Below, piece by piece: positions 1 to 57,602 of a stretch of 64,000 bases of DNA (positions are counted from its first letter, which is position 1; every line of letters starts with the position of its first letter). The notes under the pieces were generated by a model. It was not told the origin of the DNA. It did not search any database and saw nothing but the letters and a program-made list of their open reading frames with translations. Location: IMG/VR virus record IMGVR_UViG_3300048854_000081, positions 128,001 through 192,000 of that record; one strand, written 5' to 3'. The stretch comes from a virus (lineage: Duplodnaviria; Caudoviricetes). A program made the position numbers and the translations under genes.

Positions 1-1473
1 ATAGTGATAGTTACCTACAGCATAGGCTAAGCCCTTGTAGGAGCCTGTGTAATCAACGCGCGTCTTCCAGCGTAACTCATCACTACCCTTATCATCAGGG
101 AAGATTTCATCGCGTCTGTGGTGAGCTACGTTCTTGTATCCCCAGTTGAAGTGACAGTCACCAAACACTTCCGTATGCGATAAACGTAAGAAATCCAGAT
201 CATTATCTTCAAGAATATCAATACTCTTCTGGAACAGATTTGGAATGTATCTTACAAAACCATTCTTACATGGTTGACCCTTAAGAATCTTACCAGTTGG
301 ACTCTCACCCCAGTCAGCATCGTTCTCGCCGTCACATACCAAGAGCATATCATCTTCAAAGAAGATCATGTACTTGTGGTTACTTTTGTCAAAATGCTTT
401 GAACAGAATACACGACCATCGTTAATGCCAAGGTTATCACCTTCATGGATGACCTCAAAGCCATATTCCTTAAACAAATCGGAATATTCCTGAGCCAAGT
501 TAGGATCAGTGGAGTTATTGACTACATACTTCTTATTCTTTTCAAATTCTTCCGGGTAAGCTACACGGAAAGATTCTGCCCACATCTTAAACTGACGTGG
601 TAGATTGTAAGTGATTGCATAGAAGGCTAGTGGGAATTCTGGTTCTGCTTCAATCTTGTTCTGCTGAAGGTCTTCAAAGAACTTGTAAACAAGTCCATTA
701 CCTTCAATGTAACGAATATTGTACTTCTTAGGATCACGGTAGGTGGCTAGAGTGAATACCGATTCTTCCGTACCCATGTGACCAGCGTTCAATGTATCAT
801 TTAGAAGGTGGTAATACTGATCATTGAACGAATTGATCGCATCCTTGTTACCACCGAACACTCCACCACGACAAACGTACTTGGTGTCGGTACCAGCATA
901 TGAATTCATGGCTGATTTAGTGAAACCGTGGACTTCTACCTGACCATCATAAGGGAAAGCAAGGAACATCATCTTGTTTAGATGAGGAATGATTTGCTTT
1001 TCAAGTGCTGGGGTAAAGTACTGCTCAAGGTTTACTGTATTGGAAAGACCACCATCTACCCATAGAAAATACTTGGTATCAAAGTAATTGAATAGGGAAG
1101 CATCATTTAACATGAACTGCTTATTCATTACAAGTGGATTGTACAGTTCAAGCTTAGCTTGGGTACTATCGACTAACCAACCAGCCTGATTGTACCAGCT
1201 TGGATTAGTTCTAATTGATTGAATCTTTTCATTGAATGGAAAAGCTCTAAGATCGTCCAATGTCTTTAGGATGACGCGAGTATTTTCGCGACCTCTGATT
1301 TCCCAAACCACACTTTCGTATTGTGGTTCGATGTAGACCACCATAGGAAAGTCTAGTCTAAGCATTCTCTTGAAGCACTCTAGGTAATGATCGAAAGAGC
1401 GCTTCATACCGCCTTCCATTTCACCACGGCCTAGGTTAAACAATCCCGTTACTAAGGTTAAATTTCTTGTCAT
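1..1473 (-). CDS. Two-domain glycosyltransferase, 3'-truncated by the window edge: HtrL/WlaTC-like N-terminal domain plus GT-A (GT2-like) C-terminal domain
   Basis: Not in the ORF track; translated by hand from ATG 1473 (MTRNLTLVTGLFNLGR...YNPLVMNKQFML...YFLWVDGGL...VCRGGVFGG...MGTEESVFT). A second domain has FYAITYN...GDNLGINDGR...YMIFFEDDMLL. The frame stays open to position 1. Confidence 0.75.
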   Translation of the reverse strand, partial: MTRNLTLVTGLFNLGRGEMEGGMKRSFDHYLECFKRMLRLDFPMVVYIEPQYESVVWEIRGRENTRVILKTLDDLRAFPFNEKIQSIRTNPSWYNQAGWLVDSTQAKLELYNPLVMNKQFMLNDASLFNYFDTKYFLWVDGGLSNTVNLEQYFTPALEKQIIPHLNKMMFLAFPYDGQVEVHGFTKSAMNSYAGTDTKYVCRGGVFGGNKDAINSFNDQYYHLLNDTLNAGHMGTEESVFTLATYRDPKKYNIRYIEGNGLVYKFFEDLQQNKIEAEPEFPLAFYAITYNLPRQFKMWAESFRVAYPEEFEKNKKYVVNNSTDPNLAQEYSDLFKEYGFEVIHEGDNLGINDGRVFCSKHFDKSNHKYMIFFEDDMLLVCDGENDADWGESPTGKILKGQPCKNGFVRYIPNLFQKSIDILEDNDLDFLRLSHTEVFGDCHFNWGYKNVAHHRRDEIFPDDKGSDELRWKTRVDYTGSYKGLAYAVGNYHY

Positions 1474-1484
1474 CGTAAAATCCG

Positions 1485-2216
1485 TTAAATTATATTTGTT
1501 GATATTAGTTTGCCACCATGCAATGTTCTAAAGTTATCAGCAAATGGTGTTCTATTATTTACATTAATTATATTGATGTTGCTTTTTTGTATGGCTACTG
1601 CTAATTCAAATGCTTCAATAAAAGGATCGATGTCATTTTCAATAGCATAATCCGATATTGCCTTCCATTCTCTTAAAAAGTGATTGGTTATTTTACCGCG
1701 TGTTAAAACCATAATGGTCTCAACTGCTAGCCTAGCTTCGATAGTTGTGAAATCAATATCATGAGCTTTGGCTTTATCTGGAATGAAACGAGCTAGGCTT
1801 GTATTTTCGCAGACCTTTTCTCTGAAACGACACATTAATGTGTCATCGTGTCCATGAATGAATCGGGATATTCCTTTATCCCAACCAAATACGAATGTAT
1901 CTGCATCAATATAAATTAATGATTCACCAACCACCTGTGACGCCATATACATAGCAATAGATTTTAAATGATAATTAAACTTACCTTCAATGGTTGGTTT
2001 AAATAATTCATACTTATTGATATCTATAATCTTAAGTCTGCTACCAAAATAGTAGACATGCGGATCACAAATAGCTGGTTTGTCTGTAACTATATAAATG
2101 TCTGACGACGTGAACTTCATAACGCTCTGGACAAGCGTCAGACATTTATCGATGTACTCTTCACCTATTGCTAAGGTTACGAATACGATTTTTCTATCGA
2201 CATCATAACCACTCAC
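1485..2216 (-). CDS. GT-A fold nucleotide-sugar transferase-like protein
   Basis: IVFVTLAIGEEY, YIVTD, and a DxD motif in IYIDADTF; overlaps the upstream GT gene by 4 nt. Confidence 0.6.
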   Translation of the reverse strand: MSGYDVDRKIVFVTLAIGEEYIDKCLTLVQSVMKFTSSDIYIVTDKPAICDPHVYYFGSRLKIIDINKYELFKPTIEGKFNYHLKSIAMYMASQVVGESLIYIDADTFVFGWDKGISRFIHGHDDTLMCRFREKVCENTSLARFIPDKAKAHDIDFTTIEARLAVETIMVLTRGKITNHFLREWKAISDYAIENDIDPFIEAFELAVAIQKSNINIINVNNRTPFADNFRTLHGGKLISTNII

Positions 2217-3067
2217 AACAATCCTTCAAAAAATGCGCTGAATGACTTCATGGACGGCTCATAACATGCCCAATCTTCGTGATACCATGTATCAAAATCG
2301 AAAATGTTAAACAATTCAGGATACTGCTGGTAGATTAAGGTAAGAATCATTTCTTCTTGGAGAAGCGTGTTGTTCTCTAGAACATGATTGATGATTTCTT
2401 CCGAAGCCTCAAACATCTTAGAAATTTGTTCATTCGTACCACCGAACAGACCAGCAACCACACTACCCGGTAGGCGAGTGTCATTCATGTACAATTCGGG
2501 ATAATTATGCTGTCTATTGTTACAATAGAAGGTAAACAATCCAGTTTCGGTCAATTCGTTTAGCTTCTGAATAAGCTTACCATTGAAAGCTAAGATATTC
2601 TGAAACGATTTCTCGTAACCTTTGTCTTCCGGCATGAACGGATTGAACTTACTTGGGATGATGCCACCATGAGAAAGGCCCGCATCAATCCAGAATACCT
2701 TATCATTAACATTGGCATCAGATTCGGTCTTCAACCATTCCAGCTTCAACCACATGATTTCCACACAACGGTGTTCCCATACGTTATCATTAGCGTATAG
2801 TTCCTTGTTGATCTGTTTGATTTCATGGATTTTCTTATGATGCTTCATGGTTGGAAGCTCATAAATCTTCAAGGTCACATTCGTGATGGTATTCTGGTCA
2901 AGATATGTTTCAATCTCTTTCTTATCACGGGCAGATGTATAGCATAGAATAGGTGCGCCAAGATTTGCTAGGCATTTGAGAGAATAGAGATAGTGTCTAT
3001 CTCTATTCAATCTACCACCAAAATCTGTACCATGTAATTGATTATAAATTGCAGTTACAAATTTCAT
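2213..3067 (-). CDS. HtrL/WlaTC-family glycosyltransferase-like protein
   Basis: KFVTAIY, IMWLKLEWL, FWIDAGL, VVAGLFGG and EEMILT parallel the motifs of the 1-1473 N-terminal domain. The likely start is ATG 3067, directly after the upstream stop (track starts at 3106). Confidence 0.65.
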   Translation of the reverse strand: MKFVTAIYNQLHGTDFGGRLNRDRHYLYSLKCLANLGAPILCYTSARDKKEIETYLDQNTITNVTLKIYELPTMKHHKKIHEIKQINKELYANDNVWEHRCVEIMWLKLEWLKTESDANVNDKVFWIDAGLSHGGIIPSKFNPFMPEDKGYEKSFQNILAFNGKLIQKLNELTETGLFTFYCNNRQHNYPELYMNDTRLPGSVVAGLFGGTNEQISKMFEASEEIINHVLENNTLLQEEMILTLIYQQYPELFNIFDFDTWYHEDWACYEPSMKSFSAFFEGLL

Positions 3068-3068
3068 C

Positions 3069-5399
3069 TTAGGCATCCAACATCTTGTATCTGCTGCTGT
3101 TCTCAATCGATGAAATCAATAGATAATCATGATCCTTACCAATCTTTCCGGTATCCATGTACCACAATAGGATGCCTTCGTAATTGTTAGAGAACCATTC
3201 TAGGTTTTCTAGGTTACCACAGAAGAGTGCAGCCGTTGGGTAATGATTGATTTCAGCCTTGAAACGATCCTTGACGTAAGCCGCATCGAATATGCTTTCA
3301 ATATTCTTCTTAGAAGAAATGATGACATGCTCATCAGTCTTAGCGAACTGAGACAGAAGATCGACATCACGAGAGATATTGTAGGCATATTCACGTTCCT
3401 GTAACTCATCCAAGTTAACAAATAGGTGATATTTGCTGTTGTAAACATTGGCGTGAATCACTTCCTTACACCACAATAGCTTGATGTACTTAGCAAATTC
3501 AACCGTAGAATGCGTATGGAAGGTGAAACGTGCCGTTAGGCGAGAATCATAATAATGCTGTCTTGGTGTAATTGGGAAATACTTCAACGAGTCACTAGTT
3601 GGTAGAACAGCAGAGTATTTTTCCAAATTATACTGAGGAATCATAACAACAAGATTTCTACCATCACGGATCAAACCCTGAATCTTAGAAATATCACCAT
3701 CGATATCAGACTGATTATCCTTAAATGACAATACGTAGATCGATGTATCGTCAGATAGGGCAACCTTTTCCTGCTCTTCCTTCTGCTTTGTAAACTTATT
3801 GTTCGAAGCCTTGGAGATAATCTTACCTTCAAAGTAGACAGCATCAAGTTCGGTGTCTCTTAGAATCTTGAATGCATCTGAAAGACGGGTAAGAATAGGC
3901 TTACCGTCAACGTTAAACGACGTATTCAATAGAACACCATGACCGGTCAACTTCTCAGTCTCACCGATTAGATCATAAATTAACTGATTCTGGCTACGGG
4001 TAATGGTCTGTAGACGTGCAGTATTGTCTTCATGAGTAATAGCAGGAATCTTATCACGCCATTCTTCACGAACATTAGCCACGAACACCATGTGGCGGGA
4101 TTCAACGCCTTCATCGAATTCAAAATACTTAGGACAGTCTTCAAGACGAACCATAGGCGCGAATGGACGATACCACTCTCTATGCTTAACCTTATTGTTA
4201 AGAACATCCTTCATATCACCGACCGGGTTACAGATAATACTTCTGTTACCCAATGCACGGGAACCATGCTCAGAATTACCCTGAATCATACCGACAATGT
4301 TACCATCGGCGATAAATCGAGCCAAATCTTCTAACTGAACGTTTTCGTGAACAACTAGATCGTATTCCTGTACGTATGTACCGAATTGATTCTTATCTAG
4401 GATAGGAGCACCAGAATAGGTCAAATCAACCTGATTATCTGGCTTCAAATACCACATAAGACCACCGGAAGCAATACCACAGTCATTTACGTTAGGTGGA
4501 ACGAAAACCTTGTTATTTCTAAGCTTTAGAAGCTTGGAGTTCAACAATACGTTAAGCGCACAACCACCGGCCATTGAGACTGGCATATCTGGATACTTGT
4601 CTAGATATTTCTGTGCATACTTAAAGAACTGGTTTTCAAATGACTTCTGTGAAGTTGCTGCAATGTCCCAAGCAAGCTGACCTTCATAACGACTGGTTTC
4701 GAAGTTGAAATCATCACAACCAATACCCTTAAACAAAGCTGTTAGGGCATCATAGCGAGCTTCAGCACCACCAATGTAAGAATTACCAATGTAATTGAAC
4801 TTGGAATAGAATTCATCAAAATGAGGAACCCATTCGTCGCGAACAGTGCCGTATGAGCATAGACCCATGATTTTACCAGCATACACTAGATTACCAATAC
4901 TCAAAGCTTCCTTCTTGATATCCTTGATATAATCACAGATGATCATGTATGGGAAACCTAAGTCTTGGTTAAACTTATCGACTAGAGTAATACCAGTCTG
5001 TCTATTTGCTAGATACACATTGAAATAGCCACCATCGCCGCCACCATCAAAGGTGAAAACGAGAGATTCTTTATATGGGGACTGATAGAATGCGGTTGCT
5101 GCATGAGCGGTATGATGATCATAACCTAGAGCTTCCTTAGTATGGAATTTAGGCTTGATATTTTGTACGTAATCGGTTAGATATACGTCAACATCACTCC
5201 TGTCCGTGGTGGACAGGAGGTAGTCTGTAATTTCATCAAAGACAATCTGAGGATGCTTGCACGGCATGTAGGTGGTCAGACCTATGTTCTTAGAATTCAA
5301 CCACCTTTCGACTTCAATTACCCTATATTCACCCTTGTAATACATTGCTATTGCAGCATTGTGCGATCCATATGCCGATAGGATTAATTTGTCTTTCAT
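3069..5399 (-). CDS. O-carbamoyltransferase (NodU/CmcH/TobZ family) fused to a C-terminal HtrL-like domain
   Basis: HHTAHAATAFYQSP, DGGGD, GKIMGL, GGCALN, EHGSRALGNRSI, KHREWYRPFAP and LLNTSFN are diagnostic; there is an extra ~230-aa C-terminal domain. Confidence 0.9.
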   Translation of the reverse strand: MKDKLILSAYGSHNAAIAMYYKGEYRVIEVERWLNSKNIGLTTYMPCKHPQIVFDEITDYLLSTTDRSDVDVYLTDYVQNIKPKFHTKEALGYDHHTAHAATAFYQSPYKESLVFTFDGGGDGGYFNVYLANRQTGITLVDKFNQDLGFPYMIICDYIKDIKKEALSIGNLVYAGKIMGLCSYGTVRDEWVPHFDEFYSKFNYIGNSYIGGAEARYDALTALFKGIGCDDFNFETSRYEGQLAWDIAATSQKSFENQFFKYAQKYLDKYPDMPVSMAGGCALNVLLNSKLLKLRNNKVFVPPNVNDCGIASGGLMWYLKPDNQVDLTYSGAPILDKNQFGTYVQEYDLVVHENVQLEDLARFIADGNIVGMIQGNSEHGSRALGNRSIICNPVGDMKDVLNNKVKHREWYRPFAPMVRLEDCPKYFEFDEGVESRHMVFVANVREEWRDKIPAITHEDNTARLQTITRSQNQLIYDLIGETEKLTGHGVLLNTSFNVDGKPILTRLSDAFKILRDTELDAVYFEGKIISKASNNKFTKQKEEQEKVALSDDTSIYVLSFKDNQSDIDGDISKIQGLIRDGRNLVVMIPQYNLEKYSAVLPTSDSLKYFPITPRQHYYDSRLTARFTFHTHSTVEFAKYIKLLWCKEVIHANVYNSKYHLFVNLDELQEREYAYNISRDVDLLSQFAKTDEHVIISSKKNIESIFDAAYVKDRFKAEINHYPTAALFCGNLENLEWFSNNYEGILLWYMDTGKIGKDHDYLLISSIENSSRYKMLDA

Positions 5400-5424: not shown

Positions 5425-5432
5425 TATTTATT
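5425..5432 (-). promoter_or_regulatory. Putative late (gp55-type) promoter AATAAATA upstream of the carbamoyltransferase
   Basis: The same NATAAATA octamer precedes many structural genes in this window; it lies 25 nt before the ATG. Confidence 0.55.
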
Positions 5433-5436
5433 AAAA

Positions 5437-6849
5437 TCAACTGTCTGCTAGACGGTCGATTCTAACCAACCAATCGTTCGAAGTGGTGTGCGGCCAAATC
5501 GTATAGGTCTTAGCGATGCGTGATGGATCACACATAAAGATGAAGCGATAGTCAACCCAATCACCCTTTAGATAAGCGGCAATTTCGTTAGCATCAAGGT
5601 CTTTTCTGAAGATTTCTTCGCCGTTCTCATCATGCGTACCAACGTACCAGAAATCGAAGTCAGTACCCGGATAAGTCTCTTCAACCTTAGTTTCAGGATT
5701 GACCCACTTAACGTCGTTCTTGTGAATGCATACGCGGATGTCATTCGAACGAGCAATGGTGGACTTCCATTCTTCTTCAGAATCGAAGGTCTGATATTCT
5801 AGGGTTGGTTCAACACGATCAAGAACCTTCTGCTGAACGCCACGGTACTTGAAGCTCATACCGGCATATTCTTCAAACTGCTTGACAGTACGGACAGTAC
5901 CGAAACCATACTTACCAAAATCGATCTGAGACTGGTCTTCACCGTCCATGCCGAATAGGATACGATTTCTCTTATGGCACTTGACGTTCTTTTCCCACCA
6001 ATCTTCAGTAATCTTACCCTTCTGCTTCTGCTGGGTGGTGTGGTCATCCCAAACCTTGACGCGACCCTTACGAGTATATTCGTGCCAAGCAACAGTTTTA
6101 TGTGGGTGATACAGATCGTAGCCGTGGGTGAAGGCACGAACACCGATAGAGATTTCTTCACCATGGAAGAAATATTCTGGATCATGCTGTACTTCTTCGG
6201 CAAAAGAGCCGTCAGCGAATGCAAAGTGAGCACTGTAGAAGCGCGAGAGCATTGGCTTGGTACGTTCCTTGTAATCATCAATCGTGGAAGGGCGGAAGAA
6301 CACTGCGCCTTCTGGAATGAAGCGATCAAAGTCCATTTTCCATGGTTCCTGAACACGACCGGCTGGATCGTTTTCTGGATCAAAAGAAGATATGTAAGCC
6401 GTCAATAGAGGCTTCGGACTTACATCCCTTACAGATTCTAACATTTCGATTAGTACCGTATCCCACCCCGGTATAAATCTATGATGCGAATCGAGTTGTA
6501 GGGTATATTTTTCCTTACCATAATGCTGCTGAATCTTGTTACGTGCCCAGCAAGCACCATGTGTCTTCAAATAATGAAGATCGATGAGTTCTACGGTTGC
6601 TCCATTCAACGTTAGCGTGTGGACAGTATCGCCCAACTTTTCGCCAGTAGAAACTACATCAAAAGACTTGTCGAGGAAATCCTCAACGGTTTCGTCTGCG
6701 GCATGCTGCCAACAGATAGTTACTCTTAGTAACTCTGGATGTTCTGCGTGTTCAATCATGTCAACTAGGGTTGGGATTAGTTGATGATCACGATAGCTCG
6801 CAATCTGTACGAATATCGTATTCTTGCTTTTGGTCTTAGTCTTAGCCAT
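5437..6849 (-). CDS. GT60-type glycosyltransferase (UDP-GlcNAc:polypeptide/hydroxyproline alpha-GlcNAc transferase-like)
   Basis: TIFVQIASYRD, GACWAR, YTLQLDSHHRF (DxH), FHGEE and RAFTHGYDLYHP match the Gnt1/OGNT (GT60) pattern. Confidence 0.8.
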   Translation of the reverse strand: MAKTKTKSKNTIFVQIASYRDHQLIPTLVDMIEHAEHPELLRVTICWQHAADETVEDFLDKSFDVVSTGEKLGDTVHTLTLNGATVELIDLHYLKTHGACWARNKIQQHYGKEKYTLQLDSHHRFIPGWDTVLIEMLESVRDVSPKPLLTAYISSFDPENDPAGRVQEPWKMDFDRFIPEGAVFFRPSTIDDYKERTKPMLSRFYSAHFAFADGSFAEEVQHDPEYFFHGEEISIGVRAFTHGYDLYHPHKTVAWHEYTRKGRVKVWDDHTTQQKQKGKITEDWWEKNVKCHKRNRILFGMDGEDQSQIDFGKYGFGTVRTVKQFEEYAGMSFKYRGVQQKVLDRVEPTLEYQTFDSEEEWKSTIARSNDIRVCIHKNDVKWVNPETKVEETYPGTDFDFWYVGTHDENGEEIFRKDLDANEIAAYLKGDWVDYRFIFMCDPSRIAKTYTIWPHTTSNDWLVRIDRLADS

Positions 6850-6876: not shown

Positions 6877-6914
6877 CATAAAAGTGAATGTCGGGTGGGA
6901 TTCCCGACATTCAC
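6877..6914 (-). terminator. Putative intrinsic terminator
   Basis: Perfect 12-bp stem GTGAATGTCGGG/CCCGACATTCAC (6884-6914), followed on the minus strand by a short T run. Confidence 0.6.
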
Positions 6915-6941: not shown

Positions 6942-7382
6942 TTAACCCTTGTTTGCCTTAGGTGGGCGACCAGCCTTACGTGGAGCCTGAGCAGATTCGA
7001 CGACTGGTGCGTCAAACTGGGTCTGCGGGGCTTGTGGGTTAAGACGTGGAGCCTGAATAGCACCAGCGCGATGTAGGCTTGGTGCCATGATTTCGCCAGA
7101 GCGAGTTCTAACCTTAACAAACTGGTGGAAGTACTCTAGAGCGTTTACGCCGTTGGCGAGGGTCACCTGTGAGAATAAGTCCCAAGCTTCGTAACGAGCG
7201 GCATCACGCTTGGAAAGAATCTTCGCAGCGCGGTTACGGTCGATATCGTCAAGGTAATCAGTACGGATGAAATATACGTCACCGTTTTGCTTGTTGTGAC
7301 GCATAACGATGACTTCATAGGCGACGCCATTATTGAATAGGTCGATGGTAGAAACGTGTGGTAGCATAATGACTATCTCCAT
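6942..7382 (-). CDS. Hypothetical protein with a C-terminal AT-hook-like motif
   Basis: The ORF ends RKAGRPPKANKG; CATAAATA lies upstream (7402-7409). The true start may be 7367, which has GGAG upstream. Confidence 0.6.
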   Translation of the reverse strand: MEIVIMLPHVSTIDLFNNGVAYEVIVMRHNKQNGDVYFIRTDYLDDIDRNRAAKILSKRDAARYEAWDLFSQVTLANGVNALEYFHQFVKVRTRSGEIMAPSLHRAGAIQAPRLNPQAPQTQFDAPVVESAQAPRKAGRPPKANKG

Positions 7383-8751: not shown

Positions 8752-9685
8752 AAGAATTAGTGTTGAGCATTTTAGCGTAACGCTTGGATTCATCAATGAT
8801 TCGATCAAGGTCATGATGCCTACAGAACTTCATAAACTTGATTACGTTAAATTTACCACGATTGTTCATGGCTTTAACGATAGTTTTTTCCATTCTTGCA
8901 CGAATTTCCACCGGCTGCTGGCGCAAATCCATCAGTAACTCATTTTCCTCAAACAATTCCTTGGTTTTATAAGAATGCTTACGAAGATTGCCATCCGCAT
9001 CAAATTCCTCTACCTCAAATTCATGTTCCATGAGGTTAGTTTTAAGGTATTCGTCTTTATAAGCCGCGTCAATCTTTGTCTTTCTTAATTTTGGATAACT
9101 GGATATTACGTTATCGCTTGTATCCCCTCGGATGCACTTCTCAAACATAAAGTGCTTGTGATCGAAATCCCACTCTAGAAGAGTTCTCTTCTTTTCCTTA
9201 TCTGGTTCGATAAGAGTAACGTTTGGATTGTCCAACAACTGCATGAAGTCTTTGTCGGTACTGATGATAATATGCTTATCATCAGGGTACTTATCCACGA
9301 AACCAGCGATCAAATCGTCACATTCCAGCAGATTACCTTTCAATACTATCAAAGTAGTATTTTCTTTTAGGAATTCATGGAAATCCTGAATATGAGCATC
9401 GAACACTTTCAGTTGGTCGATTTCCTTTTGAGAAAGATTCTGTCTACGCTTACCTTTGTATGGCTTATGGGTGATACCTGCATACTTGACGTATTCCTTT
9501 CTCCACGAATGAGAGTCGAATGACGCCACAATCTCATCAGGCTTGTACTTATTGTTTAGATACTGCATAGACACCAAAGCAGAATGATGACACATACTCA
9601 TTAATATGTCCTCATTATGCTTAACGTTCGCATAGAATGCCCGATATAACATGTTAGACATGTCTATGTGCATGTATGTTCTCAT
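8720..9685 (-). CDS. rnh: T4-type RNase H / 5'-3' exonuclease
   Basis: IDMSN, SFD...WRK...YKGKR, ECDDLI, ISTDKDFMQL, GDTSDNV. Confidence 0.88.
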   Translation of the reverse strand: MRTYMHIDMSNMLYRAFYANVKHNEDILMSMCHHSALVSMQYLNNKYKPDEIVASFDSHSWRKEYVKYAGITHKPYKGKRRQNLSQKEIDQLKVFDAHIQDFHEFLKENTTLIVLKGNLLECDDLIAGFVDKYPDDKHIIISTDKDFMQLLDNPNVTLIEPDKEKKRTLLEWDFDHKHFMFEKCIRGDTSDNVISSYPKLRKTKIDAAYKDEYLKTNLMEHEFEVEEFDADGNLRKHSYKTKELFEENELLMDLRQQPVEIRARMEKTIVKAMNNRGKFNVIKFMKFCRHHDLDRIIDESKRYAKMLNTNSFRFEDLTEVG

Positions 9686-20810: not shown

Positions 20811-22058
20811 TCATGGAGGTGGTGCAGATGGTGATGGTGTTGGGTCAGGTGTAGGAGCAATTGTTGGTGTAGGTGTTGCCTCTGGCGTTACTGTCAAAGT
20901 CACGGACGGAGTTGGGGTTACTTCTGGTGTCACCGTCATGGTCACTGATGGTGTAGGAGTTACTGTATCACTTAACGAAATTGTTGGAGTGATAGATGGG
21001 GTAACCGTCAATGACGCAGTGATGGAAGGTGTAACAGTAATCGTAGGTGAAACGCTGATAGTCAACGAAATCGTTGGAGTTATCGACGGAGTTATACTTG
21101 GGGTAATCGTCGCGGTAACTGATGGCGTAGGAGTCAAGGACGAACCCGGAGCCGGAGTTGAGGTTGGGGTTACCGAAGGTGTTGGTGTGACTGTCGCCGT
21201 TGCCGTAGGTGTCATGGTTGTGGTTACAGCCGGAGTATTGCTGGTCGATGGTGTTACTGTCAACGTTGGAGTAACCGATGGAGTCGATGTCAATGATGGA
21301 GTCAACGAAAGTGTTGGCGTTACGGATGGTGTATCCGATATGGTTGGTGTCAATGTTGGTGTAACTGGCGGTGTTTCCGATGGAGTTACAGAAATCGTAG
21401 GCGTAATCGATGGCGTCTCCGATGGAGTTGGAGTTACCGAAGCTGTCAATGATGGCGTTACCGATATGGTAGGAGTCACAGACGCAGTTGGTGATGCTGT
21501 CTGTGTTGGTGTAATGGTTGGACTGATTGCCGGAGTCGAACTTGGAGTGATAGATACCGACATCGTGATACCCGGAGTCGAGGTCGGTGTAACCTGTGGT
21601 GTCTTCGATGGGGTCAACGATGGCGATGCTGTAGGTGTAGGTGTGGCACTCAATATGATAGTTGAGGTTGGAGTTATCGTTGGTGTAGCCGATGGTGTAG
21701 GTGTAGGCGTGGAAGAAATAGGAACTGGGGTGATTGTTTCCAATACCGTACCAAAATACAAAACTTCTACGAAACCAGTGTAAGAATTGTTACCAAAATC
21801 TACAGTGAATACGTTATCATCCACCACTAAGGTGTTTGCCTCTACTTTAGTAAAGCCTGAGGTTGCATCACCAATATAAACTCTAATGGATAGGTCGCTT
21901 GAATTAAAGTAATGATTAACCGTCCACAACGATGATGCTGTGGTTTGATTGAATTGAAAAGAATTTTGGAAATCTTCAAAATTCTTTTCCGCATTGACTA
22001 CTCTACCAGTGATTTTATCTAATAGAACCTTTTTGTAATTAGAAAATAACTTAATCAT
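20811..22058 (-). CDS. Mucin-like virion protein: ~110-aa N-terminal domain plus a ~305-aa Thr/Pro/Ser tract
   Basis: Continuous TPTP/TPSVT/TPSIT repeats to the C-terminus. The likely start is 22058 (ATGA overlap with the upstream stop); the track starts at 22079. Confidence 0.75.
20814..21737 (-). repeat. Degenerate Thr/Pro/Ser codon repeat tract
   Basis: TP[S/T][V/I]T units repeated at protein level with variable codons. Confidence 0.9.
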
Positions 22059-24685
22059 TGGGTTAGTTTGCCCGCCCAAGTGTCAATAACAACATCAGTA
22101 TAAGCCGATGCACTTGGTAGTAATCCAAAAACATGACCATCGTTATAAATGTCGGAGGCACCTGAATAGTTCATCGTCTGAGTAGGGATATCAAATACAT
22201 AGATACCAAATCCAAAGGTATAAATTGTGATAGTATTTGCATTACTCTTTACAGTTCTCAGTCTAGCATCGGTAGCAGTCATACCTTGGAATTGATTCTG
22301 TGGTATCTGGTTTGTCAATGTTAAGGATGTGACATCTGTAACGTTATTAGTTGAATCTAGCGATCTAACGTTTAGTACACAGAATTCTGGAACGTCAGTT
22401 GTGACATCACTGCTAGCACCAAAAGTTAAGCTTGAAGGTGGTACAACTGGATTTATTACGAACAAGTAATTATCAGTTATGCTTATATAACCATAATCAT
22501 TAGCATTATAGATTACATTTTCAAGCTGTTGGGTTGCTCTATTATAGACGGCAACATAGGATTCATTGCTATCAATTACATTCTGAGACGTTAGGAATAG
22601 GTCTTGTCTTCTGCTATTGATGTTATTTGCAACGGATATGTAATCCTTCTCACCAAAGCTCTTGGATTCATAAATTTCACCATTGGTATCTTCCAAATTA
22701 TCTAAATGATATAAAGGAATTGTATCGGAAGATTGAATTACATCGAATGTATAAGTGACATCGACAGACGAATCTTCCACATTAATATTGGTTAGTCCAA
22801 TTTTGATTAATGTAAGTTTGTTCGTTTCATCTTCAACACCTAACATAAAGGCTGTACCATCACCCAAAACGTCCATACCATGCAAACCAACACAAGTTGT
22901 TGAGTTGGAGTTGGTAAAATCGTTCAATTGATTGACAGCAAGTTGGTTACCATTGGAAAATACAACAAGAGAATCGATATTTTGGCTGGTAGAGAATCTA
23001 TATGTGCCGTATTGTAGTCCAGTTGTAATATCTACCGCGTATGCAGATATCGATATGAAGCCTTCCGAATTATTTGGGATGGTGAATACTGGATGGGTTA
23101 TAGATGGTGCGAAACTACTATCATATTCGAAATCATTATCGGCATAGATACCAGACCAATAAAGATTACCGTCATTGCGATCTGTACCGACAAAGTTAGG
23201 TGGGTTTATGGATATGAATCCACCATTATCAAATCCACGAAGTTTACGTGTAAATTTATCTCCGACATCCTCACCATCACTGGAAACGCGCCACGATACA
23301 CTAAATTGACCAATATCATTACGAGTAGCACCATCAAATGAAGATAGTGCTACTTGTGCTGTTTTATCATTAGCATTCGTTAATGGGAATGCTGATTTAT
23401 AGAATAAAGAAATAGCATCTGGCGAATTCGATATTACTGTTGGTGAAGTGGTTACCGATGGTGTAATTGTAGGCGTTGGTGATGGTGTCACTGTTGTCGA
23501 ACTAGTAACCGTTGGGGTTGGAGTTAGAGTTGCCGAAAGTGTGACTGTCGGGGTTTGTGTATGCGTTGGTGTTGGAGTAGGGGAAATACCCAACGAAGAT
23601 GTTGGTGTAGGTGTTAACGATTGTGTGGCCGTTACCGATGGAGACAACGATGTTGTTGGGGTTGGTGAGGGAGTCAAGCTAACACTACGCGATGGCGTAA
23701 TGGTTGGGGTTGGTGAAGGTGTTGGACCCGGAATTCTGTTCTCAATCCATACAATTTCTTGTAGATCGATGAATACCGTGTCAGATGAGACAATGTGTCC
23801 CACTTTCTGTAGAGAATACTGTTGTGGAACGTCAACTGTGATCTGACCAGTATCACCAACGAACAATGGTGTGTTAGGTGCTTGGGTCCAATTCCAATTG
23901 TTATAATTGGTTAGAAAACCTTTTGTAATAAACTGTTTGACTTCATTGATACCAGCCGGTTCGACTGAAATGCCCACGCATGGGCGGGTGTAGTCGATAT
24001 AGGACGCAACACCAAGTTGCTTTGGTCCTTTCCATGTCAAGCAATGATAAGCTGGAATAGGTTCAATAGCTTTACCATCCATAAGAATGGAGTCGATTTT
24101 ATAAGCATTATGAATGTCTTGCTGGGTGTGAACCGGGTCTTCGGTCGTTAGAAAATAGTATCTACCACTACGATCTACCACGCGAAGGGCAATTCCATTT
24201 ACGTCAAATAGGATATAACCAAAAGATATCTGACCATTTAGTGCAACTTGCGATCCGATTGGCTGTGGCGTGAAAATACCACCGCTACCAATCTTACCAG
24301 CAAACACGCGAAGCTTTTCGTTCCAAGCTACGCCACTCCACACTTTCATTTTCTTATCAGCATAATCAAAGAAATGCTGACCTACCGAAGGATTGGCTGG
24401 TAATGAATTACCATAGGATGGTGCGTATGGGGTGGTGCCGAAGGTTCTAAGGCCAGTGGCAAGATCGATATCCCAATAAAGATAGGTATCTATCCCGGTA
24501 GGGAATGGACCCCATGCTCCTACAACTGCTTCGGCTTCCGTAAACAAATAATCATGAGTACCGTAAGCAAATGCAATATCTAGACGTTGAACATCTACGT
24601 TAATATTAACTTTACCACCCACAAGTTGTAGGTAGTTGTTATTCACTTGCGCTGCGATTATGCCTTGGCGAAAATTTATGATCAT
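22055..24685 (-). CDS. Virion fibre/decoration-like protein with a central Thr/Pro/Ser tract
   Basis: N-terminal structural region, ~100-aa TP tract (~23430-23730), beta-rich C-terminal region. Confidence 0.65.
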
Positions 24686-24743: not shown

Positions 24744-27560
24744 TCAGGTAAATGCAGATGTTGGTGGGATGAACCCGGCTGAAGTATATGGTGAAGACAT
24801 GCGCGTTACGCGAACCTCATCAATATAGCCAACCCAAGGATAGCCAGTATTGTAATAAACACCGATATTTAATTCGGTTGAGCTTCCGAAATTATCTCCA
24901 CTATCAATCGCATTAATGACAACCGTACCATTAATAGCTAACATGATAGCCGTACCGACTCGATATGCGGCCCAATGGAACCAACCAGTAGGAATAGTTG
25001 TAGCTGCTGATGCTTCTACTGATCCATTATGATAAAGTTGCCATGTTAATCCAGCATCATCCCAGCCACAACCAAGAGAGCTTGGTGAGCTATTTAAGAA
25101 CATCTGGAAGATGCCTCTAGGGGTCGCCGTTGCGTTTGCCCAACCTTCTATACAGAAATCACCATCAAGAGTACTACCAATGTTTGTAGTTCTCACATAA
25201 CCACCATTTACGAACAACGATGAACCACCAAATTTAGACTGAGCAGTCGATATTTGGGCTGGTGCAGTGCGTGTCCATGTGGTTGTCCCATGAGAATCCG
25301 TTATCGTCGTACTACCATTTGCTCCATCAAAATGTAGTAATGGACCGGTAGAAGCTATAGGCGAGTGAGTTACAGACGGAGTAGGAGTTACCGGAGGTGT
25401 TTTTGTGACTGATGACGTGACTGTAATGGTTGGCGTGACTGTCGGGGACGTTACTAATGTCTTAGTAATTGATGGTGTTAGTGTAATTGTTGGTGTAGGC
25501 GTTGGTGTTAGTGAAAAAGCATCCAATGTGAACGTACGCTTCTCGGCTGCGCCCCAAGCAGTTTGGTTGGTAATCGTTGCTGCAACTATCCAACTACTAT
25601 TATCATCAGAATATTCTATGGTGAAGTTTTTTGGCGCAAGAGCAGACTGATCCCCACCATTATATTGACCAGTCACACCAACAGTTTTAACCAATGTTGG
25701 CGTACCAAAATCCCAACCAATATAACCAGTAGTGCTACCAGCCGTCCATTTTGTTGAAACTAATCCATCAAACGCAAATGATCCATTATTGGCGCTATTT
25801 GCTTCACTTGATTCCAAATAGTTAGACCCTGCCAAGGCAGATTTTACTAGATTCACCGATGAGGTGCTATCATTATAGAAGGCCAGTTCAGCAACACCTA
25901 CATAGTTTGAATCTCCATTATTTAAGGAAATATTCATTCTCCAATATCTATGTGCAAACGCTGCCCATCCCGATGATGGGGTTGGCGTTGGTGTGGAAGA
26001 TATAGTTGGAGTTACAGAGATTGTAGGTGTAATCGTTCTAGAGACAGTGATACTTTTAGTGACAGATGGGGTTATCGTTATTGTCTTTGTTACAGATGGG
26101 GTTACCGTTGGGGTCAAAGTCTGTGTTGGTGTTGGAGTAGGCGTAATAAAGAAATCACGCTTAATACCAAAATTACGCATATAAGAGTTTGAACCACCAT
26201 TGTGATCGCCATTAAGACCTACAAAGTTACCGAACTGCTGTAATGGAATAGATGTGGCAACTACTGCTCCATCAACCAACATTTCTAATGTAATACCTGC
26301 GTCAGCCAGAGTTTTTACTCTAATAGTTACTGACTTCCAAACACCTGTTGGTAATGCATAGAGTGTTCCACCATTACCGATGGTTGGGTCATCTGTTTGA
26401 GCCCAGCTTGTCCAAGAGAAGTTCTGTAAGAAACCACAGTATAGTGTTGGTCCACCAGAATTTCCATTATTATAGTTTCTGGAATCGAAACGAGCCATGA
26501 TACCATGACCATTCGAATCACAACCAAGTAGAACGTCAGACACAGAATCCGTGTTTACCATGTACACGTCTACTGTGATTTGAGTTGAGATATCAAATGG
26601 CTGCGAACAGTTGATGTAAGCATAAGAATCCTCAGGAACACCAATTACCTGCAAGCTTGGATTTGTTGGATCAGGTGACATCACTGCGCCAACGTTCGTC
26701 CAACCACTTAGTGATGAACCATCAAAGGTACAATCATGCTGTGTTAGTGTTACTGATGGAGTTGGAGTCAATGTTTGCGTAACCGTTGCCGAAGGCGTGA
26801 ATGTACTCGTGTTTGTTGGTGTTGGTGTTATACCCGGAGTACCTGTTAAGGTAGGAGTTGCACTATTACCGGGAGTTCCGGATGGTGTAATAGAAACTGT
26901 GGCTGTTGGAGTAGCCGTATTTGTTGGGGTAAATGTTGGGGTAATAGATGGAGTAATAGAAACGGTAGCTGTTGGTGTTACCGTCGAGTCCATACTACCA
27001 GTTACCGAAACGGATACCGTATTCGATGGAGTAATAGATGGAGTTACCGAAATTGTGTTGGTGACGGACGGCGTTACAGTATTTGTTGCTGTCGCCGTTA
27101 GGGTTGGACTGGGAGACACCGATGGAGTATGTGAAACCGATAGCGTTACCGTCTGAGTTGGTGTCAGCGTTGGTGTAGGACTTGGAGTAATGGATGGATC
27201 AGGATAATTACAATTGTCCGTTCTATCTGTTGAATCCAAAAACACTAAATTTACATAGCCTGTAACCGGCTTTGAGAAGGTAATTTCTATGGCACAACCA
27301 TCAATAATTCTGACATCTGCGGATGCAAGTTCGTTATCTAGGTAAATATTTTCAGTAAACGCTTTCGATTTGGCGTTATGATAGATCGTCCATACGTTAG
27401 ATAGATCATATTGGATATGTTGGTACCCAAATACTGCATCATATACTTCATCCTTGGCGACCAAAACACCATCACTGAATCGTCTGAATAATTGTTTAAT
27501 ATTATTTTTATCGACCGAATGAGTCAGTGATGGTGTTGGAGTTGGGGTTAAGTCCGCCAT
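24744..27560 (-). CDS. Modular adhesin-like virion protein: anchor - TP - ConA-like - TP - discoidin/F5-8C - TP - LamG
   Basis: HRYWRMNI...AFDG...YIGWDFG...PKNFTIEYSDD (discoidin-like); LLHFDGANGST...SKFGGSSL...DFCIEGW...YIDEVRVT (LamG); three TP tracts. Confidence 0.75.
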   Translation of the reverse strand: MADLTPTPTPSLTHSVDKNNIKQLFRRFSDGVLVAKDEVYDAVFGYQHIQYDLSNVWTIYHNAKSKAFTENIYLDNELASADVRIIDGCAIEITFSKPVTGYVNLVFLDSTDRTDNCNYPDPSITPSPTPTLTPTQTVTLSVSHTPSVSPSPTLTATATNTVTPSVTNTISVTPSITPSNTVSVSVTGSMDSTVTPTATVSITPSITPTFTPTNTATPTATVSITPSGTPGNSATPTLTGTPGITPTPTNTSTFTPSATVTQTLTPTPSVTLTQHDCTFDGSSLSGWTNVGAVMSPDPTNPSLQVIGVPEDSYAYINCSQPFDISTQITVDVYMVNTDSVSDVLLGCDSNGHGIMARFDSRNYNNGNSGGPTLYCGFLQNFSWTSWAQTDDPTIGNGGTLYALPTGVWKSVTIRVKTLADAGITLEMLVDGAVVATSIPLQQFGNFVGLNGDHNGGSNSYMRNFGIKRDFFITPTPTPTQTLTPTVTPSVTKTITITPSVTKSITVSRTITPTISVTPTISSTPTPTPSSGWAAFAHRYWRMNISLNNGDSNYVGVAELAFYNDSTSSVNLVKSALAGSNYLESSEANSANNGSFAFDGLVSTKWTAGSTTGYIGWDFGTPTLVKTVGVTGQYNGGDQSALAPKNFTIEYSDDNSSWIVAATITNQTAWGAAEKRTFTLDAFSLTPTPTPTITLTPSITKTLVTSPTVTPTITVTSSVTKTPPVTPTPSVTHSPIASTGPLLHFDGANGSTTITDSHGTTTWTRTAPAQISTAQSKFGGSSLFVNGGYVRTTNIGSTLDGDFCIEGWANATATPRGIFQMFLNSSPSSLGCGWDDAGLTWQLYHNGSVEASAATTIPTGWFHWAAYRVGTAIMLAINGTVVINAIDSGDNFGSSTELNIGVYYNTGYPWVGYIDEVRVTRMSSPYTSAGFIPPTSAFT

Positions 27561-57101: not shown

Positions 57102-57602
57102 TTATTCTGAGAAATCTGTGTCGGTTACATCTATTACTTCGGAAGCGGAATATTCGAATGTGGTATCACTTACACTATCGCTGGTAGACATGTGACTTTC
57201 AAAGTCATCGAAACCATTACGATCTAGGAAGGAGAAGGATGGGGATTCACCATGAGAAATTAGAATTTCGTCTCTGATGTCTCTCTGCTTTCTTTCTGTA
57301 TTATCAAACTGGAAGAAAGCGTGCTTGATGGTTTGAGTAAAATAAGCGAATGGGTTGTTACTTTTCTGTGCATTGAATCCCTTCCACACCTTGACGATGG
57401 TTAGAAGAGCAAATGCTTGCATATCTTCATTATACGTATAATTGGCAAATCGGCCTTTCATAGCAAATCGATGGGTTAGCATCATAAGCATTCTGGTCAA
57501 ATTGTCAGTCATCTTACTTTGACTATTACTAATTTCTAACTCTTTGAGAAGGTCAGCATTGTTAATATAGTTCTTTTTCTTTTTAGGCTTAATTTCGGTC
57601 AT
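57102..57602 (-). CDS. gp55: Late transcription sigma factor
   Basis: NYINNADLL, FANYTYNEDM, NPFAYFTQ. Confidence 0.9.
   Translation of the reverse strand: MTEIKPKKKKNYINNADLLKELEISNSQSKMTDNLTRMLMMLTHRFAMKGRFANYTYNEDMQAFALLTIVKVWKGFNAQKSNNPFAYFTQTIKHAFFQFDNTERKQRDIRDEILISHGESPSFSFLDRNGFDDFESHMSTSDSVSDTTFEYSASEVIDVTDTDFSE

What the first reader, a model, noticed from the sequence alone, without database searches (positions are those of the whole stretch)
3069..5399. Carbamoyltransferase fused to an HtrL-like glycosyltransferase domain, behind a late-type promoter
Seen: the last ~230 aa (YIKLLWCKEVIHANVYNSKYHLFVN...ALFCG...DHDYLL) echo the motifs of the two neighbouring HtrL-like proteins but lack the W-x-D-x-G motif. 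AATAAATA lies 25 nt upstream. Inference: the fusion ties carbamoylation to a glycan, and late timing fits virion rather than DNA-precursor modification. Alternative (known): some phage carbamoyltransferases modify 5hmC, but no hydroxymethylase is visible in this window.
Basis: partly seen in the sequence, partly recalled or inferred. Interest (0 to 1): 0.7.

Follow-up and report, generated by a model that had tools for sequence, protein, structure and literature searches.

The report
Phage carbamoyltransferase with degenerate HtrL-like tail
A 350-kb jumbo phage makes, probably late in infection, an intact sugar-carbamoylating enzyme fused to a sugar-transferase-like domain that has lost that family's signature residues; it most likely caps the sugar coat of the phage's own tail and baseplate proteins rather than modifying DNA, but no sugar has been measured.

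Summary
Both parts of the observation hold. ORF 3069-5399 (minus strand, 776 aa) is a complete TobZ/NodU-type O-carbamoyltransferase with all four metal ligands, joined by a short linker to a 228-aa domain. That domain has no Pfam hit. It is nevertheless a distant HtrL_YibB relative (hhalign 95.7%, E 9e-9; shuffled controls E at least 0.009). Its model (pLDDT 91) has a GT-A fold, and its nearest ESM Atlas neighbours are all HtrL clusters (TM 0.72-0.78). The HtrL signature is lost: D140 to N662, G142 to D664, H182 to I700, E237 to H757.

AATAAATA lies exactly 25 nt upstream. ATAAATA is a real, positioned, T4-late-type element here: 61 of 528 genes carry it, against 4 for the reverse complement. 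It precedes portal, tail-tube and baseplate genes. A gp55 late-sigma homologue is encoded, and the motif is kept in orthologous loci.

The only thymidylate-synthase homologue has canonical ThyA residues, so 5hmC carbamoylation is unlikely.

The gene leads a coupled operon of HtrL-like transferases next to a GT60-like gene, in a genome rich in Thr/Pro-tract virion proteins. The best reading is late carbamoylation of virion O-glycans, with the tail as a probably non-catalytic targeting module. This scan has already noted the same cassette in other genomes. It is a new variant of a known kind.

The parts
5425..5432 (-). AATAAATA, a T4-late-type promoter element (genome-wide core ATAAATA), 25 nt before the ATG
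   Evidence: Sequence read. Positional enrichment. An exact ATAAATA is kept upstream of the orthologues in L028, L029 and RAS14.
3069..5399 (-). Whole gene: 776-aa carbamoyltransferase plus HtrL-like tail (includes the stop codon)
   Evidence: Full-length homologues of about 776 aa, aligned.
4365..5399 (-). Kae1/ASKHA-like transfer domain (residues 1 to about 345) with metal ligands H95, H99, D118 and D306
   Evidence: PF02543. Alignment to TobZ (3VEN family). All four ligands are invariant in A4.
3810..4322 (-). YrdC-like domain (residues 360-530, Carbam_trans_C), which makes carbamoyl-AMP in TobZ
   Evidence: PF16861 at 1.2e-57 over the full profile 1-170. TobZ alignment.
3756..3809 (-). Low-conservation Lys/Glu-rich linker (residues 531-548)
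   Evidence: Identity of 6-72% across homologues, lower than both flanking domains in most of them.
3072..3755 (-). C-terminal GT-A-fold domain (residues 549-776), a distant HtrL_YibB relative with the signature residues lost
3414..3416 (-). Codon of N662, at the position of the invariant HtrL Asp (W-x-D-x-G) at the end of strand beta-4
   Evidence: N in all 11 close homologues, D in XacN1 and RAS14.
5437..6849 (-). Upstream neighbour: GT60-like (PF11397 'GlcNAc') glycosyltransferase, the candidate chain initiator
   Evidence: PF11397 at 1.3e-77 and PHROG 24687. The same neighbour occurs in XacN1, L028 and L029.
6884..6914 (-). Terminator-like hairpin (12-bp stem followed by a T run) upstream of the GT60-like gene
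2213..3067 (-). Downstream gene 1: HtrL-like protein with an intact signature. Its ATG overlaps the stop of the fusion gene.
   Evidence: PF09612 at 5.3e-6. Sequence. Gene spacing.
1485..2216 (-). Downstream gene 2: 243-aa protein with a D-A-D motif and no family hit (a weak GT8-like lead only). Its start overlaps the previous stop.
1..1473 (-). Downstream gene 3 (runs off the window; 564 aa in the genome): HtrL_YibB domain plus a second domain
   Evidence: PF09612 at 6.4e-18. Genome coordinates.
57102..57602 (-). Homologue of the T4 gp55 late sigma factor, the likely reader of the ATAAATA promoters
   Evidence: T4 gp55 search, E 8.3e-8. PHROG 234 'late sigma transcription factor', 7.9e-27.

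Best explanation
The gene encodes an active TobZ/NodU-type O-carbamoyltransferase. By homology, its YrdC-like domain makes carbamoyl-AMP from carbamoyl phosphate and ATP, and its Kae1-like domain transfers the carbamoyl group to a sugar hydroxyl.

The enzyme carries a C-terminal GT-A domain that descends from the same HtrL-like stock as the two transferases encoded just downstream. In this clade the tail has lost that family's Asp-Gly, His and second Glu. It therefore most likely no longer transfers sugar. Instead it probably binds the glycan or nucleotide-sugar and holds the carbamoyltransferase on its substrate or on the glycan assembly line.

The gene is the first of a translationally coupled four-gene operon. 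A gp55-dependent, T4-type late promoter drives it.

Together with the adjacent GT60-like enzyme, the products build and cap O-glycans on the Thr/Pro-rich stalks of the phage's own virion proteins.

Shown here: domain identities, conserved catalytic ligands, loss of the HtrL signature, the promoter class, and operon layout and synteny. Inferred: late timing, a glycan acceptor, virion proteins as carriers, and a non-catalytic tail.
For: Carbamoyltransferase:
- Pfam and PHROG hits cover the whole enzyme.
- TobZ is the best solved relative, and H95, H99, D118 and D306 align to its metal ligands. All four are invariant in 13 homologues.

The tail is HtrL-like:
- hhalign gives 95.7%, with controls far lower.
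- The fold model has pLDDT 91.
- The fold is GT-A, and the nearest Atlas folds are all PF09612.

The tail is degenerate but maintained:
- Of 10 aligned HtrL invariants only K118 is kept, and E236 becomes Asp.
- Non-synonymous difference is 0.22-0.31 against synonymous 0.84-0.91, about 2.3-fold the rate of the enzyme domain.
- The domain occurs only fused. Every 'standalone' hit that was examined is a contig-edge fragment.

Late operon:
- The motif statistics are strong.
- The motif precedes portal, tail-tube, tail-sheath-stabiliser and baseplate-wedge genes, but not the DNA polymerase gene.
- A gp55 homologue is encoded.
- The motif is conserved in orthologous loci, in RAS14 directly after a terminator hairpin.
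- Stop and start codons overlap down the operon.

Glycan on virion proteins:
- The cassette of GT60-like gene, fusion gene and HtrL genes is conserved in XacN1, RAS14, L028 and L029, with a variable extra gene.
- At least 13 proteins have 50-residue windows of 58% or more Thr+Pro, several of them baseplate or virion proteins behind late motifs.
- XacN1 virions contain at least two glycoproteins (PMC5852040).
- PMC8670742 reports that carbamoyltransferases on unmodified-DNA contigs sit next to glycosyltransferases.
Against: - No HtrL_YibB protein has a demonstrated activity. Which invariants are catalytic is therefore an assumption.
- The Asp is kept in the XacN1 and RAS14 tails, so the domain may be active there, and Asn could still serve here.
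- One replication gene, topoisomerase II large subunit, also carries the motif, so the motif is not strictly structural-gene specific.
- The GT60-like gene itself has no exact motif.
- No glycan, carbamoyl group or transcript has been measured in this phage.
- The acceptor could be some other glycan.
Confidence: 0.45

Rival explanations
1. The protein is a bifunctional tailoring enzyme. The C-terminal HtrL-like domain is an active glycosyltransferase that adds the sugar, and the N-terminal enzyme then carbamoylates it. This mirrors PBCV-1 A064R, where a transferase domain adds the terminal rhamnose and the fused methyltransferase domain methylates it.
For: - The tail is confidently folded and under purifying selection.
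- XacN1 and RAS14 keep the Asp.
- HtrL domains in viruses are often fused to other glycan enzymes such as GT2 and FkbM methyltransferases.
- A064R-D2 is an inverting, cation-independent transferase that in silico analyses missed (PMC9614988). Loss of a DXD-like Asp therefore need not abolish activity.
Against: - In the window's clade, 11 of 11 sequences have Asn at the invariant Asp position.
- The invariant Gly142, His182 and Glu237 are also replaced.
- The tail evolves more than twice as fast as the enzyme domain.
- Two intact HtrL paralogues are encoded immediately downstream, so the operon would still hold HtrL-type domains with the full signature if the tail were inactive.
Confidence: 0.3
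2. The enzyme is a DNA-modifying enzyme. It carbamoylates 5-hydroxymethylcytosine, as a nucleotide or in DNA, like the enzyme found by MetaGPA.
For: - It belongs to the same enzyme superfamily. A phage homologue makes 5-carbamoyloxymethylcytosine in vitro (PMC8670742).
- The cluster lies next to the replication module of DNA polymerase and 5'-3' exonuclease.
- A thymidylate-synthase homologue lies about 10 kb away.
Against: - That homologue is the only one in the genome. It keeps L143, C146, H147, D169 and N177, is 39% identical to E. coli ThyA, and passes the thymidylate synthase equivalog model.
- The dCMP-directed enzymes in PMC8670742 and PMC13326640 carry N177D, with L143D/E or D169N.
- No Tet/JBP match was found, although the control for that search was silent.
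- The late-type promoter and the glycosyltransferase neighbours fit the 'unmodified contig' context described in PMC8670742.
- The XacN1 authors used BssHII, NaeI and SpeI digests of its DNA to check genome structure (PMC5852040). That these enzymes would be blocked by bulky cytosine adducts is general knowledge, not tested here.
Confidence: 0.04
3. The operon modifies another glycan: host envelope polysaccharide or LPS, or a free oligosaccharide or small molecule, rather than phage proteins.
For: - HtrL_YibB genes in bacteria sit in lipooligosaccharide loci (PMC4172580).
- NodU and TobZ act on free oligosaccharides and aminoglycosides (established knowledge of those enzymes).
- No acceptor has been identified here.
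Against: - Late expression in a lytic jumbo phage leaves little time for remodelling the host surface to pay off.
- The cassette lies between the baseplate and replication modules and travels with a GT60-like, polypeptide-type transferase.
- The genome is unusually rich in Thr/Pro-tract virion proteins.
- XacN1 virions carry glycoproteins.
Confidence: 0.15

Closest known systems
TobZ (Streptoalloteichus tenebrarius O-carbamoyltransferase, PDB 3VEN and related), with NodU/NolO, GdmN and NovN
   Same: Same two-domain enzyme of a Kae1-like plus a YrdC-like domain. The four metal ligands are conserved. It is the best solved match at E 3e-44. NCBIfam NodU matches at 1.5e-52, though far below its equivalog cut-off.
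   Different: None of these carries a GT-A or HtrL-like C-terminal domain. Their acceptors are an aminoglycoside, a Nod-factor GlcNAc, or polyketide and aminocoumarin scaffolds. The acceptor here is unknown.
XacN1 ORF333 'carbamoyl transferase' and its homologues in Xoo-sp13, RAS14 and CM1
   Same: Full-length orthologues with 49-52% identity and 100% coverage. They share the same domain order and the same neighbouring genes.
   Different: Their tails are only 21-27% identical to this one and keep the Asp at the W-x-D-x-G position. The deposited annotations do not mention the extra domain.
HtrL_YibB family (Pfam PF09612), including the two neighbouring genes
   Same: Same GT-A-type fold with significant profile-profile similarity. 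K118, the F-x-G of the FGG motif and an acidic residue at E236 are kept.
   Different: No member of the tail family reaches PF09612 even at E of 10 or less. D140, G142, H182 and E237 are replaced. HtrL_YibB itself has no demonstrated activity.
PBCV-1 A064R (two glycosyltransferase domains plus a methyltransferase on one chain)
   Same: A viral multidomain enzyme in which a sugar-adding module and a sugar-capping module are fused and act on virion-protein glycans (PMC9614988).
   Different: The cap is methyl rather than carbamoyl, the host is eukaryotic, and the glycans are N-linked. Whether A064R-D2 is HtrL-like could not be tested here.
5-hydroxymethylcytosine carbamoyltransferase from MetaGPA (PMC8670742)
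   Same: A phage-borne member of the same carbamoyltransferase superfamily that uses carbamoyl phosphate and ATP.
   Different: That enzyme is a 63-kDa protein on contigs that also carry a thymidylate-synthase homologue, and such homologues on modified contigs mostly have Asp177. Here there is an extra GT-A domain, the neighbours are glycosyltransferases, and the ThyA is canonical.

Membership tests
NodU/CmcH/TobZ O-carbamoyltransferases (PF02543 + PF16861) | Both Pfam domains score above their gathering thresholds, in the right order | tested here: met
   89.4 bits against a cut-off of 24, and 194.6 bits against 27.
NodU/CmcH/TobZ O-carbamoyltransferases (PF02543 + PF16861) | His-His-Asp-Asp metal site of the Kae1-like domain (TobZ H114, H118, D137, D338) | tested here: met
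   H95, H99, D118 and D306 align to these residues. All four are invariant in 13 homologues.
NodU/CmcH/TobZ O-carbamoyltransferases (PF02543 + PF16861) | Carbamoyl phosphate- and ATP-dependent O-carbamoylation activity | not testable with these tools
   Needs an enzyme assay.
HtrL_YibB (PF09612) | Match to the family HMM above the gathering threshold | tested here: not met
   No hit for P0001, nor for any of the 19 tail-family members at E of 10 or less.
HtrL_YibB (PF09612) | Homology detectable by profile-profile comparison and by fold | tested here: met
   hhalign gives 95.7%, E 9.4e-9, with controls at E of 0.009 or more. The top Atlas folds are all PF09612, TM 0.72-0.78.
HtrL_YibB (PF09612) | Invariant W-x-D-x-G, His182 and Glu236-Glu237 | tested here: not met
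   The positions read N662, D664, I700 and D756-H757. Both neighbours keep them.
GT-A fold glycosyltransferases | Rossmann-like GT-A fold | tested here: met
   The Foldseek top hits are GT6 alpha-1,3-galactosyltransferase and the blood-group GTA/GTB enzymes, E 2e-6, TM 0.54-0.58.
GT-A fold glycosyltransferases | DXD-type acidic motif at the end of strand beta-4 | tested here: not met
   The window clade has N-L-D or N-L-N, and XacN1 and RAS14 have D-L-A or D-L-S. No residue of the triplet is conserved across the family. Some GT-A enzymes work without DXD, so this does not prove inactivity.
5hmC carbamoyltransferase system (PMC8670742) | Co-occurring thymidylate-synthase homologue with Asp at position 177 (dCMP-directed) | tested here: not met
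   The single homologue has N177, H147, L143 and D169.
5hmC carbamoyltransferase system (PMC8670742) | Discriminating residues at TobZ W408, G421 and R423 | tested here: inconclusive
   P0001 has M371, G384 and R386 at these positions. The text of the paper does not say which states mark the DNA-modifying class.
T4-type late promoter | TATAAATA-like -10 element at a fixed distance upstream, enriched genome-wide | tested here: met
   AATAAATA sits 25 nt before the ATG. 61 genes carry the motif against 4 in the reverse-complement control.
T4-type late promoter | A phage-encoded gp55-type late sigma factor | tested here: met
   Window 57102-57602: E 8.3e-8 to T4 gp55 and PHROG 234 at 7.9e-27.
T4-type late promoter | Late, replication-coupled transcription from this site | not testable with these tools
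   Needs an RNA time course or 5'-end mapping. A sequence search with the T4 gp45 clamp found nothing, which is uninformative.

The most novel reading that the evidence does not exclude
A former glycosyltransferase domain has been turned into a non-catalytic glycan reader. It aims a carbamoyltransferase at mucin-like O-glycans on phage tail and baseplate proteins. That would give the first carbamoylated glycoprotein coat described for any virus, made by a phage-encoded, late-expressed cytoplasmic O-glycosylation line.
Probability: 0.35. Interest if true: 0.6.

Novelty: new variant of a known kind. Interest (0 to 1): 0.45.

Why it matters
Glycosylated phage particles are rarely documented. A carbamoyl cap on a viral glycan was not mentioned in the giant-virus glycan review I searched (PMC9614988, zero occurrences of 'carbamoyl').

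If the reading holds, this gene gives a simple mass tag (+43 Da) for detecting and following a phage-made glycan coat. It would also be a clear case of a transferase domain recycled as a targeting module.

The gene also helps to separate the two uses of phage 'Nol-like' carbamoyltransferases, which current annotation does not distinguish:
- Glycan capping goes with glycosyltransferase neighbours, a late promoter and a canonical ThyA.
- DNA hypermodification goes with an Asp177 thymidylate-synthase homologue.

The wider cassette had already been noted elsewhere in this scan, and cultured relatives exist, so the step forward is moderate.

Tried and rejected
- BLASTP of the tail against the three neighbouring proteins gave nothing significant; the best hit was E 0.28, on the W-x-K motif.
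- Pfam scans of all 19 tail-family members found no family.
- A language-model look-alike search gave only weak GT-A-type leads: Nucleotid_trans, GT8 and GT_PLOD on 10-58% of cluster members.
- A search for standalone forms of the tail turned up only contig-edge fragments. The frame is open upstream, and in L011 it continues into carbamoyltransferase sequence.
- A co-folding job for the enzyme part against the tail returned 'no answer'. It is not used as evidence either way.
- PHROG annotation of ten motif-bearing genes outside the window was mostly 'unknown function'. It also revealed one exception, topoisomerase II.
- The Tet/JBP family search found nothing, but its control was silent. The T4 gp45 search found nothing and is uninformative.
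- A dN/dS estimate failed because synonymous sites are saturated. Only raw proportions are reported.
- A literature search for cyanophage carbamoyltransferase function was swamped by 'Nodularia' matches.
- A sigma-70-like match overlapping the late motif (9 of 12 positions) is at chance level: 22 sites were found against 26 expected.
- I considered that a late transcript from further upstream might read through into the cluster. A strong hairpin at 6914-6884 lies upstream of the GT60-like gene, and that gene has no exact late motif of its own, so its timing is left open.
Full report
**What is there**

The window is bases 128001-192000 of a single 350,036-bp virus record with 42% G+C. ORF 3069-5399 on the minus strand encodes 776 residues.

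- Residues 73-312 match Carbam_trans_N and residues 360-530 match Carbam_trans_C over the whole profile.
- PHROG 1601 ('Nol-like carbamoyltransferase') covers residues 4-529.
- The best solved relative is the O-carbamoyltransferase TobZ (E 3e-44).
- In that alignment H95, H99, D118 and D306 fall on the four metal ligands of TobZ. All four are invariant in 13 full-length homologues.

The enzyme part therefore looks complete and active.

**Relatives**

No phage record matches at the DNA level. At the protein level the full 776 residues align at 49-52% identity to Xanthomonas phages XacN1 and Xoo-sp13 and to Stenotrophomonas phages CM1 and RAS14. All four have genomes of 309-385 kb. Cyanophage and pelagiphage 'Nol-like' enzymes align only over the first ~530 residues. 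Metagenomes hold about a dozen closer full-length forms of 773-779 aa.

The neighbourhood is conserved in XacN1, RAS14 and two metagenomic contigs. The order is DNA polymerase, 5'-3' exonuclease, a PF11397 (GT60-like) glycosyltransferase, the fusion gene, an HtrL-like gene of about 285 aa, sometimes a gene of about 243 aa, and an HtrL-plus-second-domain gene of about 565 aa.

**The C-terminal domain**

Residues 549-776 have no Pfam or PHROG hit, and BLASTP against the neighbours is not significant.

- An exhaustive search of 1.8 billion representatives found only 13 relatives.
- Those that looked free-standing sit at contig edges. In L011 the reading frame stays open upstream and continues into carbamoyltransferase sequence. 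I found no evidence that the domain exists on its own.
- None of the 19 members hits any Pfam family.
- A profile of this family against a profile of 20 HtrL_YibB proteins gives hhalign probability 95.7%, E 9.4e-9, over 201 columns. Reversed and block-shuffled controls scored 25 or less, against 64.9 for the real comparison.
- The AlphaFold model is confident (pLDDT 91, pTM 0.89).
- In the PDB it matches GT-A enzymes, the GT6 alpha-1,3-galactosyltransferase and blood-group transferases, at E 2e-6 and TM 0.54-0.58.
- A model of the neighbour's HtrL domain (pLDDT 92) also matches GT-A and nucleotide-sugar folds, including the same GT6 enzymes.
- In the ESM Atlas the six best rows are all PF09612 clusters, mostly viral, at TM 0.72-0.78 over 208-222 residues.

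**Loss of the HtrL signature**

I mapped the HtrL invariants through the profile alignment:

| HtrL invariant | Residue in this protein |
|---|---|
| K118 | K640 (kept) |
| G208 (of the FGG motif) | G728 (kept) |
| E236 | D756 (conservative change) |
| D140 | N662 |
| G142 | D664 |
| H182 | I700 |
| G207 | C727 |
| E237 | H757 |

N662 lies at the end of strand beta-4, where GT-A enzymes carry their DXD motif. All 11 close homologues have Asn there. XacN1 and RAS14 keep Asp, reading FVDLA and YVDLS. Both neighbouring HtrL-like proteins keep the full signature.

The tail is still maintained. Against two orthologues the non-synonymous difference is 0.22-0.31, while synonymous sites are saturated at 0.84-0.91. 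Against the same two orthologues the enzyme domain shows 0.09-0.12. Amino-acid identity tells the same story: 53-70% for the tail against 78-88% for the enzyme within the clade, and 21-27% against 62-65% to XacN1 and RAS14.

My reading is a conserved but probably non-catalytic domain. The caveat is that no HtrL_YibB protein has a demonstrated activity. The family is known only from lipooligosaccharide loci (PMC4172580).

**The promoter**

AATAAATA occupies 5432-5425 on the minus strand, with 25 nt between it and the ATG. Taken alone the octamer is not over-represented in the genome. The heptamer ATAAATA, however, is the most enriched word upstream of genes, at 11.5-fold.

- 61 of 528 predicted genes carry it ending 15-35 nt before the start codon.
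- Only 4 carry the reverse complement in the same regions, and 2 carry the motif in size-matched coding windows.
- Those 61 sites are 59% of all 104 occurrences in the genome.
- Genes behind the motif include the portal, a tail-tube protein, a tail-sheath stabiliser, two baseplate-wedge proteins and a virion structural protein.
- The DNA polymerase gene lacks it. One replication gene, topoisomerase II large subunit, has it.
- The phage encodes a homologue of the T4 late sigma factor gp55 at 57102-57602 (E 8e-8 to T4 gp55; PHROG 234 at 8e-27).
- An exact ATAAATA is kept before the orthologous gene in L028 (TATAAATA) and L029 (AATAAATA). It is also kept in RAS14 (AATAAATA), where it directly follows a terminator-like hairpin. 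XacN1 has GTAAATA.

The fusion gene's stop overlaps the next gene's ATG, the next pair overlaps by 4 nt, and the last gap is 11 nt. The motif therefore probably drives a four-gene operon. Timing itself is inferred, not measured.

**DNA or glycan?**

A phage carbamoyltransferase that makes 5-carbamoyloxymethylcytosine is known. It co-occurs with thymidylate-synthase homologues, and those on modified contigs mostly carry Asp177 (PMC8670742).

- This genome has one PF00303 match, 7.6 kb left of the window.
- It is 39% identical to E. coli ThyA and passes the thymidylate synthase equivalog model.
- It keeps L143, C146, H147, D169 and N177. Those are the canonical states at the positions that distinguish dCMP hydroxymethylases (N177D, L143D/E) and 5-hydroxy-dCMP synthases (D169N), according to PMC8670742 and PMC13326640.
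- PMC8670742 also notes that carbamoyltransferases on unmodified contigs are flanked by glycosyltransferases.
- For XacN1, the authors report at least two virion glycoproteins and used BssHII, NaeI and SpeI digests of the DNA (PMC5852040).
- In this genome at least 13 proteins have 50-residue windows of 58% or more Thr+Pro, and ten of them reach 60% or more. They include the 3678-aa giant protein and a protein with baseplate-wedge hits, mostly behind late motifs.
- The adjacent gene matches PF11397 at 1e-77. By established knowledge of CAZy GT60, this is the family of the protist polypeptide GlcNAc-transferases.

An earlier follow-up in this scan reached the same view of the GT60-like gene. 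I re-checked only its Pfam hit and the Thr/Pro tracts.

**Mechanism proposed**

1. Late in infection the gp55-type sigma factor directs transcription from the ATAAATA element.
2. The GT60-like enzyme starts O-glycans on Thr/Pro stalks of virion proteins.
3. The intact HtrL-like and other transferases extend the chains.
4. The fusion enzyme makes carbamoyl-AMP and caps a sugar hydroxyl, as TobZ and NodU do on their substrates.
5. Its degenerate HtrL-like tail binds the glycan or a nucleotide-sugar and keeps the enzyme on target.

The first step rests on motif statistics and homology. The others are inference from homology and context.

**Rivals**

- The tail is still an active transferase, as in the modular PBCV-1 enzyme A064R (PMC9614988).
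- The target is another glycan.
- The target is DNA, which I rate as unlikely.

**Novelty**

Orthologues are already deposited as 'carbamoyl transferase' or 'hypothetical protein' without mention of the tail. This scan has also noted the same cassette in several other genomes. The contribution here is fourfold:

- the tail is shown to be a degenerate HtrL-type GT-A domain found only in fused form;
- the late-promoter assignment is supported;
- a residue-level argument is made against the 5hmC route;
- an earlier lead is confirmed, that Thr/Pro-rich virion proteins could serve as acceptors.

I rate it a new variant of a known kind, of moderate interest.

Noticed in passing
window 57102-57602 (-): A homologue of the T4 late sigma factor gp55 (PHROG 234, 8e-27). 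It carries no ATAAATA motif of its own. It sits between structural-gene blocks.
   Followed up: partly
G000:C1:88859-90682 (-), outside the window: The topoisomerase II large-subunit gene has an exact ATAAATA 20 nt before its start. It was the only replication gene found behind the late-type motif.
   Followed up: no
window 20811-21827, 22055-24685, 24744-27560, 27618-38654 (all -), and others genome-wide: At least 13 proteins carry long Thr/Pro-rich tracts (TPT-type repeats, up to 70% T+P in 50-residue windows). Among them are the 3678-aa giant protein and proteins with baseplate-wedge hits. PHROG 15511 (unknown function) recurs in many of them.
   Followed up: partly
window 6884-6914: A perfect 12-bp hairpin followed by a T run on the minus strand, between the 141-aa gene (6942-7367) and the GT60-like gene. 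The GT60-like gene has only a near-motif (TATGAAATA) about 20 nt before its ATG, so its timing is unclear.
   Followed up: partly
window 1485-2216 (-): A 243-aa protein with a D-A-D motif and no Pfam or PHROG hit. A language-model search gives only a weak GT8 lead. The gene is present in XacN1 and L029 but absent from RAS14 and L028, so it is a variable part of the cassette.
   Followed up: partly
G000:C1:120357-121256 (-), 7.6 kb left of the window: A canonical thymidylate synthase with an insertion of about 24 residues relative to E. coli ThyA, after the conserved YG-x-QWR motif.
   Followed up: partly
L002 (RAS14) 8930-8970: A terminator-like hairpin abuts the AATAAATA motif directly upstream of the orthologous fusion gene. 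This is a tidy terminator-promoter junction.
   Followed up: no
ESM Atlas rows: HtrL_YibB domains in viruses, including giant viruses, are very often fused to GT2, FkbM-type methyltransferase or Gly_transf_sug domains. This suggests the family is a common module of viral glycan-tailoring enzymes.
   Followed up: no
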